The position numbers and the translations under genes are program-made. Shown here piece after piece: positions 3,686 to 56,469 of a stretch of DNA of 63,549 nt. Origin of the DNA: Eubacteriales bacterium. GTDB lineage: Bacteria; Bacillota; Clostridia; Oscillospirales; CAG-272. Where the stretch lies: the NCBI GenBank assembly GCA_045638385.1, contig JAZUBI010000128.1, positions 1 through 63,549 on the forward strand, written 5' to 3'. Under the pieces are notes generated by a model, which saw only the letters and a list, made by a program, of their open reading frames with translations, was not told where the DNA came from and ran no database searches. Every line of letters begins with the position of its first letter. Positions within the stretch are counted from its first letter, which is position 1.

Positions 3686-4696
3686 TCATCCGTTAAAGAT
3701 AACTTTTCTTTTTTCAAAATCGAAGCAAAGAACTCTCTTTTCTCTCAGATAGTGATCCGAGTTATCTCCAACTCTTACAAGCTTTAAGAGCTTGAGATTA
3801 GGATCTATACTCACAATATTAAAGCAGTCCTGCGTCTTGGTTCCATCGATCCTCTTTCCGTCGCTCCATCCGTTCCATGTAGTAGCACAAGGAACTATCG
3901 AATTTAAAATTCCCTTCTCTGTAATTCCAAATCCGTCATGATGATCGTGTCCCGCAAGGTGACATATATGCACTCCGCCCGCGTTTACAAAATTCACAAT
4001 ATCATCCTCAAACTCATAGTGCCTGGGCTTGCCGGAAAGTGAAAAATAGTCGTTTATGGTCTGGAACGTCACGCCAAACGACTCTGTTATGTGATCTGTT
4101 TTTTCGTGCATTGCAGTAATTACATACAAGCCCTTCTCGCGCGCGTCATTGAGAAGAACGACAAATTGCCTTCTCTGCTCGTCTATGTCATAATATGGGT
4201 CGAGCACGATCATTCTTATATTTGACTCGGGAAAATCCTTGTAATAGCTCATCGAATATTCGAGATCAAAGAAATTAACGTCCCAATCCTCGATATGATT
4301 AAAAAGAAGCTCATATGGCTTTTGCTTGCCGGTTATGCTCAAAACATGCTCGCTGTCATACGAAAAGGTGTCGTGATTTCCAACGCAGTTATATACGATC
4401 CTCTCTCGATCGATACCCTCCCCGTAAAGGTCGCAATATCTCTCCTGCGAGCCCTCGCAGTAATCTCCCGTGTGGAGCGCAAATGATATGTAATCCTTGT
4501 AATAATTCATGTATTCCATAACTCTGTTCCAGCAATCAAGACGCATGTGTACGTCCGAAAAATGAAGGAACTGAAGCACGGAAAACTTGTCATCAAACTT
4601 CTGATTAAAAAATGATGTTCTCGTGGCTGATGCTTGAATTACAAAGGACTCAACGTCACGGTTGAGCTCAATTATGCTTTTATTTTCTCCGTTCAT
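3686..4696 (-). CDS. Calcineurin-like metallophosphoesterase
   Basis: Ordered motifs HFSDVH (DxH), TGDY (GD), VGNHD (GNHD) and LAGHDHH (GHxH). Confidence 0.8.
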   Translation of the reverse strand: MNGENKSIIELNRDVESFVIQASATRTSFFNQKFDDKFSVLQFLHFSDVHMRLDCWNRVMEYMNYYKDYISFALHTGDYCEGSQERYCDLYGEGIDRERIVYNCVGNHDTFSYDSEHVLSITGKQKPYELLFNHIEDWDVNFFDLEYSMSYYKDFPESNIRMIVLDPYYDIDEQRRQFVVLLNDAREKGLYVITAMHEKTDHITESFGVTFQTINDYFSLSGKPRHYEFEDDIVNFVNAGGVHICHLAGHDHHDGFGITEKGILNSIVPCATTWNGWSDGKRIDGTKTQDCFNIVSIDPNLKLLKLVRVGDNSDHYLREKRVLCFDFEKRKVIFNG

Positions 4697-6884: not shown

Positions 6885-8261
6885 CTATTTTATTGCGCGT
6901 AACAAATCCCAAAATCGTTCAGCATAATCTTCTATTTGATCCATTGAATCACTGCAATTTGAATACCCATCAAAATGGGTTTCCGTAATATGCGCATAAC
7001 ATCCAAGTAAAATTCCCCACAGATCACTAGGAATAATATAGTGTCTGTTTCCTTCGCTATAATAGTATTTCCTTCTTGTTTCATTGCTAAAAGGATAGGA
7101 TATTTGATGTGACATCTTGTCATGTACAAATTGCAATCCAGCAGTAGGTGTTTTTCCAAACAATTCAGAAAAGAAAATACCATTCGCTTTATATGGTAAA
7201 TTTGCTTTTGTATGTTTTAAAACAATCAAAAACAACTCCACGCACATATAGGTCTCATCCATTATTTCATCATCCTCGTTGAGGAGATTGTGTAGCAGAT
7301 GACATTTTTCAATGATCGCTATCTTTTCTCGTGCTTCTATTCCAGTAAAAATGTTTTTTTGAAACTCAATAACATCAACCTGGTCATTTTTTTCAAATTG
7401 ATTAAAGTAATAGCCATGTATTTCCTCGAACTGATCATTGTATGTACCCTCGTCAAGTTCTATTTCAAACTTGATAAACTTAGCAAGATATTTTTGGGTA
7501 TCGACTTTATCGCCGAACATTTTTTGAATTGTGCGTTCAAGCTGAGTCTTATCTACAGCAAGTATAACCTGCATGTTTTCAATTTCATTAAAAACATGGT
7601 GTATTCTTTCCAAAACTTTTATTTGGTATTCAGGAATGCACCTATCGAGTTCATCAACAACAAATATTATTGTTCTTTCCGAAGCAATTTCTTTTATCTC
7701 TTTACGAAGTGTTAATAATGCTTGTTTAAAATCCAAGTATTGATCATAACTATGAGCCTCACACACTCTCGCCGTCGCATTATCACACGCCTCTGATATT
7801 CCATCTGTGATTTCTTTCGGGTTCAGACCAATTTTTGATTCTAGCCATTTCGATCCACCTTCATATAGTTTAGATAATACGAATTTTGCGACACTACGTA
7901 TACGCGCGCGTGCTTCTTCAGAAAAAAGATGTTCTTTGCTGTTTATATCATCCAGCATAGATGATACAATGGCTATTAGCGGTTCTTCATAATAATCGTA
8001 TTCCCAACAATTAAAGTGGAACACATAATATTTATCTGCCGCACGTTCCCCATCTTGTTTAAAAAGCAGTCTTTTCTCGAGTTTATCAAGAACATATGAT
8101 TTCCCTATACCCCAAGAACCACTGATAGCAAAGCAAGCGTTTTTATTGCTGCTAGCAATTAATTCTATAACCCTTTGTATGCGCTGAATATTCTTTTGCC
8201 TATTTAAAAAATCTCCGTCAATAGAAGACTCAACTATACTATCAATAAAAACATCAGACAT
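6885..8261 (-). CDS. KAP-family P-loop NTPase
   Basis: Walker A GSWGIGKSY, FNCWEYDYYEEP (the KAP-typical aW.yD motif) and Walker B IIFVVDELDRC. GGAGGAG RBS. No TM insertions seen. Confidence 0.8.
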   Translation of the reverse strand: MSDVFIDSIVESSIDGDFLNRQKNIQRIQRVIELIASSNKNACFAISGSWGIGKSYVLDKLEKRLLFKQDGERAADKYYVFHFNCWEYDYYEEPLIAIVSSMLDDINSKEHLFSEEARARIRSVAKFVLSKLYEGGSKWLESKIGLNPKEITDGISEACDNATARVCEAHSYDQYLDFKQALLTLRKEIKEIASERTIIFVVDELDRCIPEYQIKVLERIHHVFNEIENMQVILAVDKTQLERTIQKMFGDKVDTQKYLAKFIKFEIELDEGTYNDQFEEIHGYYFNQFEKNDQVDVIEFQKNIFTGIEAREKIAIIEKCHLLHNLLNEDDEIMDETYMCVELFLIVLKHTKANLPYKANGIFFSELFGKTPTAGLQFVHDKMSHQISYPFSNETRRKYYYSEGNRHYIIPSDLWGILLGCYAHITETHFDGYSNCSDSMDQIEDYAERFWDLLRAIK

Positions 8262-10860: not shown

Positions 10861-10900
10861 AATACTGCAGAAAATGATACATTTTCTGCAGTATTTTTTT
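10861..10900. terminator. Bidirectional rho-independent terminator (probably the original ssrA terminator)
   Basis: 16-bp perfect stem (10861-10876 / 10880-10895), 3-nt loop, A-run before and T-run after. Confidence 0.75.
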
Positions 10901-10902
10901 AT

Positions 10903-11082
10903 CCAAGTCGCAGACTTGGTGTATCATCGCCGCACGAAGTGTGGTGGATATCATCAGCCCCTGCGGGGCTGTATCTCATCACGCGCCAGCGTGTATCTTT
11001 CTGCCACTTGATGATATACAAAACTTCGTTTTGATGATATGCAGTTTCTGCGAAATTGATGATATACAACGGCAAGCCGTTG
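10903..11082. repeat. Motif-hairpin array A (3x TATCATC(A), centre, 3x TGATGATA(T), interleaved with 7 small hairpins)
   Basis: Hairpins include ccaagtc-gca-gacttgg, gcccc-tgc-ggggc, cacgc-gcca-gcgtg, caaaac-ttc-gttttg, gcag-ttt-ctgc and caacgg-caag-ccgttg. The array is homologous to the reverse complement of array B. Confidence 0.8.
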
Positions 11083-51978: not shown

Positions 51979-52209
51979 TAGGTTTTTGAAAAATAATTAT
52001 TTTTTTATTCCTTGAACGATTGAACCCTCAAACGTACAAAATCCGCCGCTTCTGTCTTTATAGGGCAGAGGATGGCGGATTTATCGTTTATAAAAGAAAA
52101 AACACCCTCAAAACCGCCGAAATGAGCGGTTTAAGGGCGAAAATGAGGCATTTTCCGTATATAAAGCAAAATCCCATAGCCGAAATTGTATCGACTATGG
52201 AATCTTTTT

Positions 52210-52263: not shown

Positions 52264-52276
52264 TCTCGAACTCAAT

Positions 52277-52438
52277 CACGGCAAAGCCGTGTATATCATC
52301 AATGCGCAGCATTGTATATCACCAAAACGAAGTTTTGCATATCATCAAGCCGCAGAAATACACGCTAATGCGTGATGATATACACCTTCGGTGATGATAT
52401 GCGCCTAACAGCGATGATATACCAAGCCTGCGGCTTGG
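52277..52438. repeat. Motif-hairpin array B (diverged reverse-complement copy of array A)
   Basis: 3x TATCATCA-type and 3x ATGATATA-type motifs interleaved with hairpins cacggc-aaa-gccgtg, atgc-gca-gcat, aaaac-gaa-gtttt, cacgc-taat-gcgtg, cacc-ttc-ggtg and ccaagcc-tgc-ggcttgg. Confidence 0.8.
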
Positions 52439-52544: not shown

Positions 52545-52943
52545 TTAAATCTCTTTAAAGCGTGCTTCTGACATAACGTTTATGTAATTTTCATCATATT
52601 GATGTATTGAGTGAAACACTCCTTCATCAAGACCCGTGATACAGTTCGGCTTGCCTTTTACGACAAAAATTCTTATGCAATCCTTTGCCGGAGAAAGGCT
52701 AATAAGCGGTTCGGAGATTCCATATATTCTACCTACAATACGAGGTAAAACGGGAAACTGCTCCCACTCTATTGTATTGTTTTTGCAATGAATAATGGAA
52801 TATTTATTAGCGCGTTTCCTTGTAAAATAGATCTCGTAGTTTTTATCTTCCAGTGCGAACTTTACAAGTCCGATTTTATCCATAAACCAATCGCTTTTAG
52901 ATTGATCTTTAAATTTCTCATAAGAAGTATAGATTTTACCCAT
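52545..52943 (-). CDS. Hypothetical 132-aa protein
   Basis: Start moved to ATG 52943 (AAGGAG RBS). 8-nt overlap with the upstream four-helix-bundle gene. No recognisable motif. Confidence 0.55.
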   Translation of the reverse strand: MGKIYTSYEKFKDQSKSDWFMDKIGLVKFALEDKNYEIYFTRKRANKYSIIHCKNNTIEWEQFPVLPRIVGRIYGISEPLISLSPAKDCIRIFVVKGKPNCITGLDEGVFHSIHQYDENYINVMSEARFKEI

Positions 52944-53121
52944 TGTTTTTCTCCTTTGCGGTCTTGCAAGATGCAATTAGCATAACACGAATAGAAGCGC
53001 ATTTATCTGACAGAATTTTATATTGCTGACTTTCAATGTAATTTGTTCTGTGTAAAAGCTCAAGCCAATAGCCTGTCTCGCTTGATTCTTTGAGTGCTAT
53101 TTCAAGCTTGGATTCTGCCAT
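52936..53121 (-). CDS. Short four-helix-bundle protein (23S rRNA-IVS / Avd family, C-terminal-half length)
   Basis: 61 aa. SSETGYWLELL...YI...QY..L...C..I..ML matches the C-terminal helices of the PF05635-type family. It has its own promoter and RBS. Confidence 0.5.
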   Translation of the reverse strand: MAESKLEIALKESSETGYWLELLHRTNYIESQQYKILSDKCASIRVMLIASCKTAKEKNNG

Positions 53122-53144: not shown

Positions 53145-53173
53145 ATTATAGCATAAATTTGGGAATTTGTAAA
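53145..53173 (-). promoter_or_regulatory. Promoter of the four-helix-bundle/132-aa module
   Basis: On the minus strand TTTACA (53168-53173), 17 nt, TATAAT (53145-53150). The -35 lies 2 nt from the edge of array C. Confidence 0.6.
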
Positions 53174-53175
53174 GA

Positions 53176-53349
53176 GTGATGTTTGCCCTTATGGGCAAGT
53201 GATGTTGTGCTATCGCACAGTGATGTATTGATGTCTGCGACTCAAAGTGATGTTATGTGTTCCTTCCTCACGCGCCGCAGCGCACATCACAAGGCAAAGC
53301 CGTCATCACGCACGAAGTGCGCATCACGTTCCGCTTGCGGAACACATCG
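53176..53349. repeat. Motif-hairpin array C (4x GTGATGT, centre, 4x (A)CATCAC, interleaved with small hairpins)
   Basis: GTGATGT at 53176, 53199, 53220 and 53247. ACATCAC-type motifs at 53284, 53303, 53321 and a degenerate one at 53344. Hairpins include ttgccc/gggcaa, tgtgc/gcaca, gcgc/gcgc, gcac/gtgc and gttccg/cggaac. Confidence 0.8.
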
Positions 53350-53391
53350 TTCCAAAAACGAAAAAGCAGTCCATAGGACTGCTTTCGTTTT

Positions 53392-53446
53392 TGTGTAAGG
53401 GCTATAAAAAAGATATTTTTGTCGTTTTGCTTACGGGATTTGAACC
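53392..53446 (-). repeat. Repeat R, copy 3
   Basis: Same 55-bp sequence (one G/C difference). Ends 12 nt from the RloB-like stop and is followed on the minus strand by the hairpin at 53358-53392. Confidence 0.85.
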
Positions 53447-53458
53447 TAGCGAATACCA

Positions 53459-56390: not shown

Positions 56391-56469
<79 letters not shown>

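What the first reader, a model, noticed from the sequence alone, without database searches (positions are those of the whole stretch)
53145..53349. Array C uses an ATCAC-type heptad and abuts the -35 of a cargo promoter: possible operator array
Seen:
- Four GTGATGT motifs, then four (A)CATCAC motifs, each separated by a different short hairpin.
- The array ends 2 nt from the TTTACA -35 of a perfect 17-nt-spaced promoter driving the four-helix-bundle/132-aa module.
- The sequence after array A (TTGATT, 17 nt, TGTAAT, then AAAGAGGTGA) resembles this promoter/RBS region, but there the downstream gene has been lost.

Established: the RHH repressor Omega of pSM19035-type plasmids binds arrays of the heptad (A/T)ATCAC(A/T) in direct and inverted orientation.

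Inference: the arrays may be multi-site operators for a small repressor controlling the cargo of a mobile element. Unlike Omega operators, however, the heptads here are spaced by structured inserts, which is unusual.
Basis: partly seen in the sequence, partly recalled or inferred. Interest (0 to 1): 0.62.

Follow-up and report, generated by a model that had tools for sequence, protein, structure and literature searches.

The report
Hairpin-linker array before four-helix-bundle gene
The string of repeated 7-letter words and small hairpins is real. It is a diverged copy of the catalogued but unexplained "Gut-1" repeat of gut Clostridia, and it sits between a terminator and the promoter of a small four-helix-bundle protein gene that is probably its partner, so it is not an Omega-type operator.

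Summary
There are four exact GTGATGT words, then four inverted (A)CATCAC-type words. Different mini-hairpins lie between them, and the array ends 2 nt from a near-consensus promoter.

Array C is a below-threshold relative of Rfam's orphan Gut-1 motif (34.9 bits; cut-off 50). The same genome holds about 15 such arrays with three different linker words. GTGATRT arrays occur in 59 of 201 genomes of the family.

The usual layout is tRNA or tRNA-like fragment, then terminator, mirror-image array, promoter, gene.

The gene most often linked to the arrays is a PF05635 four-helix-bundle (4HB) protein:
- 50 of 59 array-bearing genomes have one, against 59 of 142 others.
- 15 of 32 such genes have an array just upstream.
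- The linker words track the 4HB clades.

In this copy the 4HB gene carries a 57-codon in-frame deletion. An intact paralogue lies on another contig.

Loop polarity (130 to 1) and wobble asymmetry (13 to 4) point to hairpins folding on opposite strands in the two arms. That favours DNA over a single RNA.

No Omega repressor gene was found. The heptads are not contiguous, and some arrays lack any promoter.

I read the linkers as 4HB recognition words. This is inferred, not shown.

The scan has reported the same element on other genomes.

The parts
53145..53173 (-). Promoter of the cassette: -35 TTTACA (53173-53168), 17-nt spacer, TG-extended -10 TATAAT (ends at 53145)
   Evidence: 11 of 12 consensus positions. 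Homologous promoters and leaders stand before other cassettes.
53176..53253 (.). Promoter-proximal arm: four exact GTGATGT linkers (ACATCAC on the gene's strand) with three different hairpins between them
   Evidence: Rfam Gut-1 hit 53174-53258 +, 34.9 bits. The linkers are invariant in nine homologues.
53254..53283 (.). Centre of the array: the conserved word ATGTGTTCC, then hairpin GCGC-CGCA-GCGC (53272-53283)
   Evidence: ATGTGTTCC is complementary to GGAACACAT at the far end of the array; this is unexplained.
53284..53349 (.). Terminator-proximal arm: ACATCAC, CATCAC, CATCAC and ACATCG with three hairpins (53293-53301, 53310-53321, 53328-53343)
   Evidence: Gut-1 hit 53279-53352 on the - strand, 23.1 bits. 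These linkers vary among homologues without compensation.
53352..53392 (.). Two-way intrinsic terminator behind which the array is lodged
   Evidence: stems at 53362-53386 on both strands. Nearly the same terminator follows tRNA-Met in G200.
53388..53451 (-). Repeat R3, which starts with the tRNA T-loop-like word GGTTCAAATCC; further copies lie at 52206 and 52480
   Evidence: family D2, 89-95% identity.
52936..53121 (-). 61-aa remnant of a PF05635 four-helix-bundle gene, carrying a 57-codon in-frame internal deletion
   Evidence: profile positions 60-105 of 106. (78% and 76% identity to full-length relatives, one 57-residue gap). The intact paralogue on C18 is shown.
52545..52943 (-). 132-aa ORF that overlaps the end of the 4HB remnant; no family match
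52270..52435 (.). Array B: a gene-less array of the second linker type (TATATCATCA then TGATGATATA), lying between R2 plus terminator and R1
10900..11080 (.). Array A: same linker type as array B, behind a terminator, followed by the decayed leader of a lost 4HB gene

Best explanation
Array C is the non-coding head of a small cassette lodged behind a transcription terminator. Here that terminator follows repeat R3; in another genus it follows tRNA-Met directly.

The array is a diverged member of the Gut-1 type of repeat. AT-rich 7-nt linker words are held apart by GC-rich mini-hairpins. The hairpin sequences are free to change but their pairing is kept. The units form two mirror-image arms.

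Proposed mechanism:
- The linkers are recognition words for the cassette's own small four-helix-bundle protein (PF05635, a family whose solved relative crystallised with five chains).
- The hairpins are spacers that form when the region is single-stranded or extruded. Each arm folds on a different DNA strand.
- Because the complex would sit against the -35 box, it would also set the activity of the cassette promoter.
- The same protein-array pairing would account for the many gene-less arrays with the same linker word in a genome.

In this copy the protein gene is crippled by an in-frame deletion. Any binding would have to come from the intact paralogue on contig C18.

Shown: the array, its family, its syntax, the hairpin covariation, the loop polarity, and the statistical and positional link to 4HB genes.
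Inferred: that 4HB binds the linkers, that the folded form is DNA, and any effect on the promoter or on mobility.
For: Family and copy number:
- Gut-1 hits on both arms of array C, 34.9 and 23.1 bits.
- Relatives with the same layout pass Rfam's cut-off, at 50.8-62.3 bits.
- Weinberg's own seed alignment shows the second, mirror arm in its flanks.
- About 15 arrays of three linker types lie in this genome.
- GTGATRT arrays occur in 59 of 201 family genomes, with almost no hits for the reversed control pattern.

Syntax:
- The order tRNA or tRNA-like fragment, terminator, array, promoter, gene recurs.
- 7 of 15 arrays lie within 275 nt of one of only 39 tRNA genes.

Link to 4HB:
- 50 of 59 array-positive genomes have PF05635, against 59 of 142 array-negative ones.
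- 15 of 32 4HB genes have an array within 450 nt upstream, against 2 arrays in about 75 kb elsewhere in the same loci.
- Linker words track 4HB clades.
- All three genomes with a 4HB at least 79% identical to the GCTAAAT-cassette protein carry 12-50 GCTAAAT pattern hits.
- G093 has one 4HB gene but at least 15 near-identical arrays.

Linkers are words, not helices:
- In nine homologues, 10 hairpin pairs show compensatory changes.
- Linker-to-linker pairs show none, and about 8 are broken.

Folded strand:
- Loops are c(GNA)g 61 and c(GNNA)g 69, against mirror forms 1 and 0.
- Enclosed mismatches are A.C 13 against G.T 4.

Protein: PDB 2RLD is the closest solved relative, with five chains in the entry.
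Against: - No binding or expression data exist.
- The link between linker word and 4HB clade could be plain co-inheritance of one cassette.
- 9 of 59 array-positive genomes show no PF05635 gene. G174 has 13 GCTAAAT pattern hits and no 4HB gene.
- This genome has linker-type-D arrays without a matching 4HB gene.
- About half of the sampled 4HB genes have no array upstream.
- Most arrays here precede other cargo genes.
- In two cassettes (L345, L348) the array runs straight into the ribosome-binding site. There it must lie in the mRNA leader, which favours an RNA role in those cases.
- Stems of 4-7 bp are short for spontaneous extrusion from duplex DNA.
- PF05635 proteins have no demonstrated sequence-specific binding.
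Confidence: 0.5

Rival explanations
1. Duplex operator array. A small repressor, RHH/Omega-like or other, binds the heptads cooperatively on double-stranded DNA and represses the cassette promoter. On this view the hairpin-forming spacers are incidental.
For: - The array abuts the -35 box.
- The same juxtaposition recurs in many cassettes.
- Promoter-proximal linkers are the best conserved.
- Words in direct and inverted orientation are natural for duplex-binding dimers.
- The ATCAC core resembles the Omega heptad (my own knowledge).
Against: - No PF07764 gene was found.
- The heptads are not contiguous.
- Start-to-start spacing (23, 21, 27 nt) varies with hairpin length, so helical phase is not kept.
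- Spacers keep their pairing by compensatory change.
- Loops are strongly strand-polar, 130 to 1. Duplex binding does not predict this.
- Some arrays lack any promoter.
Confidence: 0.2
2. Non-coding RNA, as Rfam files Gut-1. The array would be transcribed, by read-through from the tRNA or R terminator or from its own promoter, and would act as a structured sRNA or leader, perhaps bound by the 4HB protein.
For: - Rfam classes Gut-1 as an sRNA candidate with covariation.
- The folds are strongly stable.
- In L345 and L348 the array lies directly before the ribosome-binding site, so it must be in the mRNA leader.
- Avd, a relative of 4HB, works with an RNA in diversity-generating retroelements (my own knowledge).
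Against: - Array C lies upstream of its cassette's promoter and downstream of a strong two-way terminator.
- Loop polarity flips between the arms, so no single transcript carries both arms in the favoured polarity.
- Triloops are as common as tetraloops, and GNNA is not enriched for GNRA. That fits stable DNA mini-hairpins better than RNA.
- Orientation relative to neighbouring genes differs between linker types.
Confidence: 0.15
3. Selfish or merely structural repeat with no dedicated protein. On this view it is a palindromic DNA that lodges at terminators and spreads by recombination or slippage. It would be tolerated, or used as a terminator or insulator pad between cassettes, and its link to 4HB would reflect a shared landing site.
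For: - Near-identical copies break contigs in G093 and sit inside split terminators.
- Module duplications occur inside arrays (L357; G108).
- Many arrays have no 4HB gene nearby.
- Both 4HB cassettes and arrays favour the 3' flanks of tRNA genes.
Against: - The linker words are conserved across genera while the hairpins turn over.
- Linker type matches 4HB clade.
- The loop polarity rule implies selection on one strand relative to the word.
Confidence: 0.12
4. Stack of four-way junctions. The linkers of the two arms would pair with each other in one strand, giving a rod of serial junctions that serves as a structure-specific recombination site, in the manner of an integron attC.
For: - The minimum-free-energy folds of both strands give exactly this nested structure.
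- The two arms have similar numbers of linkers.
- Cassettes are bounded by arrays.
Against: - Linker-to-linker pairs never co-vary, and they break when linkers change.
- One-arm arrays are common.
- In C40 the variant linkers are out of register.
- No integrase gene lies beside the arrays examined.
- Y1 transposase is only weakly associated (30 of 59 against 54 of 142) and is missing from array-rich genomes.
Confidence: 0.03

Closest known systems
Gut-1 RNA motif (Rfam RF01706; Weinberg et al. 2010, PMC2864571)
   Same: - Three or more small, covarying hairpins separated by a conserved heptamer (GUGAAAU or GUGAUAU).
- Found in gut Clostridia.
- Intergenic, often behind a terminator or tRNA.
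- Each arm of array C aligns to the full model.
- Relatives with identical layout pass the cut-off.
   Different: - Array C scores 34.9 bits, below the cut-off of 50, because its linker is GUGAUGU.
- The Rfam model covers one arm only. The mirror arm, the promoter, the 4HB gene and the terminator lodging are not part of the description.
- Rfam treats the motif as an sRNA, whereas loop polarity here argues for folding on both DNA strands.
Omega (RHH) repressor operators of pSM19035/inc18 plasmids
   Same: Repeated 7-nt words with an ATCAC core, in direct and inverted orientation, upstream of promoters of a mobile element.
   Different: - Omega heptads are contiguous; these start 21-27 nt apart, with structured inserts between them.
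- The first position here is C.
- No Omega-family gene is present in this genome.
REP/REPIN elements with their RAYT transposase; BIMEs of enterobacteria
   Same: - Short palindromic units with a fixed flanking word.
- Arranged in inverted sets.
- Scattered in many copies in intergenic regions near terminators.
- One linked single-copy protein gene per repeat family.
   Different: - REP hairpins are conserved in sequence; here only the linker is conserved and every hairpin differs.
- The linked gene is a four-helix-bundle protein with no known catalytic site, not a Y1 (HUH-type) transposase. Y1 genes show only weak association.
PF05635 proteins: 23S rRNA intervening-sequence protein and Avd of diversity-generating retroelements (PDB 2RLD is the closest solved relative)
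   Same: - The cassette gene belongs to this family.
- Family members lie inside or beside structured nucleic-acid elements inserted at helix tips.
- Avd binds nucleic acid together with a partner enzyme (my own knowledge).
   Different: - There is no reverse transcriptase and no rRNA context here.
- A link to heptad/hairpin arrays is not described in any paper I could find.
Integron attC sites
   Same: - Cassette-bounding sites in which structure is conserved rather than sequence.
- Thought to act as folded single-stranded DNA.
   Different: - No RYYYAAC/GTTRRRY core boxes were seen by eye; no scan was run.
- No IntI gene lies beside the arrays.
- The cassettes carry their own promoters.
- The site is a multi-hairpin array rather than one imperfect hairpin.

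Membership tests
Gut-1 RNA motif (RF01706) | Covariance-model score at or above Rfam's gathering cut-off (50 bits) | tested here: not met
   Array C scores 34.9 bits (53174-53258 +) and 23.1 bits (53279-53352 -). GTGATAT-type relatives score 50.8-62.3 bits.
Gut-1 RNA motif (RF01706) | Three small hairpins with covariation, separated by a conserved heptamer | tested here: met
   Full-length alignment to model positions 1-77. Ten hairpin pairs show compensatory changes in nine homologues.
Gut-1 RNA motif (RF01706) | Occurs in gut bacteria or gut metagenomes | tested here: met
   Pattern hits lie in MAGs of Acutalibacteraceae, Oscillospiraceae, Ruminococcus, Christensenellaceae and Lachnospiraceae from human and ruminant gut.
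Gut-1 RNA motif (RF01706) | Acts as an RNA (is transcribed) | not testable with these tools
Loop polarity argues against a single functional transcript.
Omega-type (inc18) heptad operator | Heptad 5'-(A/T)ATCAC(A/T)-3' | tested here: not met
   The word is ACATCAC(T), with C at the first position of the core heptad. GTGATAT-type relatives would fit.
Omega-type (inc18) heptad operator | Heptads are contiguous, in runs of 7-10 | tested here: not met
   Starts lie 23, 21 and 27 nt apart, with hairpins between them.
Omega-type (inc18) heptad operator | An Omega/RHH repressor gene (PF07764) is present | tested here: not met
   No match at E <= 0.1 in the genome, which is 80% complete.
REPIN/RAYT system | The hairpin sequence itself is conserved among copies | tested here: not met
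   172 and then 352-550 distinct spacers were found. Only the linker is conserved.
REPIN/RAYT system | Linked to a Y1 (HUH-type) transposase gene | tested here: not met
   PF01797 is present in 30 of 59 array-positive and 54 of 142 array-negative genomes. Array-rich G018, G079 and G147 lack it.
PF05635 four-helix-bundle protein (the 61-aa ORF) | Pfam score above the cut-off | tested here: met
   38.5 bits against a cut-off of 33.8.
PF05635 four-helix-bundle protein (the 61-aa ORF) | Complete domain with four helices | tested here: not met
   Only profile positions 60-105 of 106 are covered. There is a 57-residue internal gap against full-length relatives.
Integron attC | R''/R' core boxes and a neighbouring IntI integrase | not tested
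   No such boxes were seen on reading the sequence. No systematic scan or IntI search was run.

The most novel reading that the evidence does not exclude
The arrays and the small four-helix-bundle protein may form a previously unrecognised two-part genetic element of gut Clostridia. On this reading:
- A ring-forming helical-bundle protein reads a row of single-stranded linker words displayed between DNA mini-hairpins.
- Each protein clade has its own word.
- The pairing controls the cassette promoter.
- The pairing also drives the copying of gene-less arrays into the 3' flanks of terminators and tRNA genes. That would be a repeat-and-keeper relationship like REPIN/RAYT, but without a known transposase fold.
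Probability: 0.25. Interest if true: 0.8.

Novelty: new variant of a known kind. Interest (0 to 1): 0.55.

Why it matters
Gut-1 and the PF05635 "23S rRNA intervening-sequence" proteins are both widespread orphans. Gut-1 has been catalogued since 2010 with no function, and I found no later paper on it.

Placing them in one cassette, with linker words that follow the protein clades, gives each a concrete and cheaply testable partner.

It also suggests a way in which a small helical-bundle protein could read repeated words on folded single-stranded DNA.

If the pairing also underlies spread, it would describe a new kind of repeat-and-keeper element. Such an element would shape tRNA-linked islands and terminator regions in abundant uncultured gut bacteria.

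For this particular locus the result is more modest. Array C is a decayed copy whose own protein gene is broken.

Tried and rejected
1. Omega/RHH repressor. No PF07764 gene was found, and the heptads are neither contiguous nor of the right word.
2. RAYT-like Y1 transposase as the mobiliser. The association is weak (30 of 59 against 54 of 142), and array-rich genomes lack it.
3. Phage origin. Of about 120 pattern hits in viral contigs, only one (L135) was a true array, at the edge of a prophage fragment.
4. Linker-to-linker pairing (a stack of four-way junctions). The folding programs predict it, but there is no covariation and pairs break when linkers vary.
5. A clean empty site for the G093 element. 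The orthologous site in G161 holds a different, partly inverted remnant, so the ends and any target duplication stay unclear.
6. RNA evidence.
7. Literature. Nothing on Gut-1 beyond the 2010 catalogue and one structure-prediction benchmark.
A2 and the real C18 protein replace it.
9. Two of the 17 "adjacent arrays" flagged by my generic detector (L336, L339) turned out on reading to be coding-sequence repeats. The count used is therefore 15 of 32.

Full report
**The observation**

Array C is as described. Exact GTGATGT lies at 53176, 53199, 53220 and 53247 on the + strand. It is followed by ACATCAC (53284-53290), CATCAC (53304-53309), CATCAC (53322-53327) and an imperfect ACATCG (53344-53349). 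The window holds 13 copies of the heptad on both strands, against 5.4 +/- 2.1 expected, and four of them fall within 78 nt.

Every spacer is a different small hairpin. Both strands fold far better than shuffled controls (z -5.9 and -6.8). The - strand promoter (TTTACA, 17 nt, TG-extended TATAAT; 11 of 12 consensus positions) starts 2 nt from the first heptad. It drives a 61-aa ORF that matches PF05635 and an overlapping 132-aa ORF with no family match.

**What it belongs to**

A permissive Rfam scan aligns each arm, end to end, to the Gut-1 motif (RF01706). The scores are 34.9 bits for 53174-53258 (+) and 23.1 bits for 53279-53352 (-), against a cut-off of 50.

Gut-1 is a 2010 bioinformatic candidate ncRNA described as "human gut only", with no function assigned. 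I found no later work on it. The raw seed alignment shows that the published examples also carry the mirror arm in their flanks, and that one sits behind a tRNA and its terminator. The Rfam model is therefore half of the real unit. Relatives with a GTGATAT linker and the same layout pass the cut-off at 50.8-62.3 bits.

The window's genome is a 2.6-Mb MAG, 80% complete. It has about 15 arrays of three linker types:
- GTGATGT then ACATCAC: array C and a copy after ddl on contig C40
- GATGAAAT then ATTTCAT, two copies

In 201 genomes of the same family, GTGATRT arms occur in 59 genomes and 46 of 97 genera, with up to 68 pattern hits per genome. The reversed control pattern gives almost none. Named records with the pattern are MAGs of Acutalibacteraceae, Oscillospiraceae, Ruminococcus, Christensenellaceae and Lachnospiraceae from human and ruminant gut.

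**Syntax**

In this genome and across genera the usual order is: tRNA (or a tRNA-like fragment such as repeat R), terminator, arm 1, centre, arm 2, promoter, gene.
- Seven of 15 arrays lie within 275 nt of one of only 39 tRNA genes.
- Homology among type-A copies begins right after the terminator's T-run and ends at GTGATT. The terminators themselves are unrelated.
- In G200, a different genus, an array-C homologue with nearly the same terminator lies directly behind tRNA-Met.
- In a congeneric genome (G139), a 76%-identical array sits behind another tRNA and precedes a different gene.
- In G093, one array element occurs in at least 15 near-identical copies. It breaks contigs and lies inside split terminators between convergent genes, so arrays can multiply and do not need a promoter.

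**The linked gene**

The three PF05635 genes of this genome are:
- the 61-aa remnant beside array C
- a full-length gene beside a type-A array on C10
- a full-length paralogue on C18, whose upstream array is reduced to one GTGATG

The 61-aa ORF equals a full-length protein minus 57 internal residues. The join falls at a repeated SKL, and the rest is 76-78% identical to relatives.

Across the family, 50 of 59 array-positive genomes have PF05635, against 59 of 142 array-negative ones. Kinship inflates such counts, so this is a lead rather than a test statistic. A detector that knows nothing about the linker word finds an array within 450 nt upstream of 15 of 32 4HB genes, after I removed two false calls by eye. 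It finds only two arrays elsewhere in the same loci.

The linker words differ between cassettes and follow the protein clades:
- AGCTAAAT with the "NRTGY" clade
- GTGATAT with "FETGY"
- TGAAG-type words with "KTNY"
- (A/G)TGATGT with "RTNYI...IASCKTAKE", the clade of array C's remnant and of the C18 protein

GCTAAAT arrays occur in 10 of 201 genomes. All three genomes with a 4HB at least 79% identical to the GCTAAAT-cassette protein carry 12-50 pattern hits.

Exceptions exist. G174 has such arrays but no PF05635 hit, and 9 of 59 GTGATRT-positive genomes have none.

The closest solved structure is 2RLD, an uncharacterised protein with five chains in the entry.

**How the array is built to work**

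In nine homologues of array C from seven genomes, ten hairpin base pairs show compensatory changes. The linker-to-linker pairs that folding programs predict never co-vary, and they break when a linker changes. The linkers therefore behave as conserved words, not as helices. The promoter-proximal linkers are invariant, whereas the terminator-proximal ones decay.

The hairpin loops obey a polarity rule relative to the word. Read on the ATCAC-type strand, they are c(GNA)g (61) and c(GNNA)g (69), against 1 and 0 for the mirror forms (first seen). Enclosed mismatches are A.C 13 against G.T 4 on the opposite strand. Both signals say the folded strand is the ATCAC-reading one.

That strand is a different DNA strand in the two arms, so no single transcript has both arms in the favoured polarity. 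From my own knowledge (Hirao; Yoshizawa 1997; Nakano 2002), triloops closed by C-G with a G...A loop are the classic extra-stable DNA mini-hairpins. Among the tetraloops, GNRA is not preferred over other GNNA loops. I therefore favour folded DNA over RNA.

Two cassettes (L345, L348) place the array directly before the ribosome-binding site, which would put it in the mRNA. An RNA role is not excluded.

The tie between array and promoter is real and recurrent, so "operator-like" is a fair description of one likely role. The Omega model fails on three tested features: the word, contiguity, and presence of the protein. The structured spacers are the core of the element, not an oddity.

A Y1/RAYT-type mobiliser is not supported. 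Phages rarely carry the arrays.

The most economical working model is that the four-helix-bundle protein reads the linker words on folded single strands. That would set promoter activity and perhaps underlie the spread of gene-less arrays. Array C is a decayed copy that could only be served in trans by the C18 paralogue. None of this binding has been shown.

**Relation to earlier scan notes**

Earlier notes on other genomes, and on arrays A and B of this window, reached the same family assignment and the same candidate partner.

**Limits**

The genomes are draft MAGs. Genome counts are not phylogenetically independent. The origin of repeat R and the exact ends of the mobile unit remain open.

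Noticed in passing
window 52936-53121 (-); G000 contig C18:2906-3256 (L330:1468-1818 -): The 61-aa four-helix-bundle ORF is a 57-codon in-frame deletion derivative. The join lies at a repeated SKL, and it keeps its promoter, ribosome-binding site and start codon. An intact 116-aa paralogue with the same N-terminus (MAESKL) lies on C18. There the upstream array has shrunk to a single GTGATG.
   Followed up: yes
window 53352-53451 and 56392-56469; L380 (G200:C58:83400-84000): In G200 the terminator that follows array C's homologue belongs to tRNA-Met itself. In the window, repeat R3 and about 3 kb (an AAA_21 ATPase and an RloB-like pair) lie between tRNA-Met and that terminator, and the shared sequence resumes at GATTTGAACC. 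The 45 nt of R after the T-loop word are not the 3' end of tRNA-Met, so the origin of R is unexplained.
   Followed up: partly
L246 (Faecousia sp. MAG JAZNYV010000101.1) 3733-3791 and 7321-7379: Two single arms carry the same hairpins in mirror image (GTGATAT then ATATCAC) and flank a 3.5-kb operon of nucleoside phosphorylases, an amidohydrolase and an RluA-like gene. Either the operon was inserted into the centre of an array, or it is bracketed by inverted arms.
   Followed up: partly
G093 (L168-L197), e.g. G093:C16:4400-4760: A roughly 330-nt element containing a GTGATAT array occurs in at least 15 near-identical copies. Many lie at contig ends. It sits between the two halves of intrinsic terminators after convergent genes, and its ends look like inverted repeats (GCAGCCCCATGGGG...AGCGG). 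The orthologous site in G161 holds a different, partly inverted remnant.
   Followed up: partly
L264 2495-2620; also L223, L268, L275: Some arrays have a single arm: four GTGATAT words and four hairpins, with no mirror arm. They end in GTTGTGGA(T/A)A. In L264 this reads TGTGGATAA, a perfect DnaA-box sequence.
   Followed up: no
L345 and L348 (G194:C76, G188:C73): In these four-helix-bundle cassettes the last linker word runs straight into the ribosome-binding site, leaving no room for a promoter. There the array must be part of the mRNA leader.
   Followed up: no
G000 contig C106:1-520 (L047): A RAYT-like Y1 transposase gene is preceded by two tandem copies of an approximately 86-nt unit. The hairpin in that unit (GGGAGGTGCTTGCTCCTCCC) is the reverse complement of a segment inside the gene.
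   Followed up: no
G000 C55:3153-3370 and C151:303-480: Two arrays carry a third linker word (GATGAAAT then ATTTCAT), the one closest to the original Gut-1 consensus. No matching four-helix-bundle gene was found in this 80%-complete genome.
   Followed up: partly
window 53254-53262 and 53339-53349, and the same positions in alignment A3: A conserved word at the array centre (GATGTGTTCC in the homologues, ATGTGTTCC in array C) is complementary to the conserved end (GGAACACATCG). That end also forms the last local hairpin. These are two mutually exclusive pairings whose meaning is unknown.
   Followed up: no
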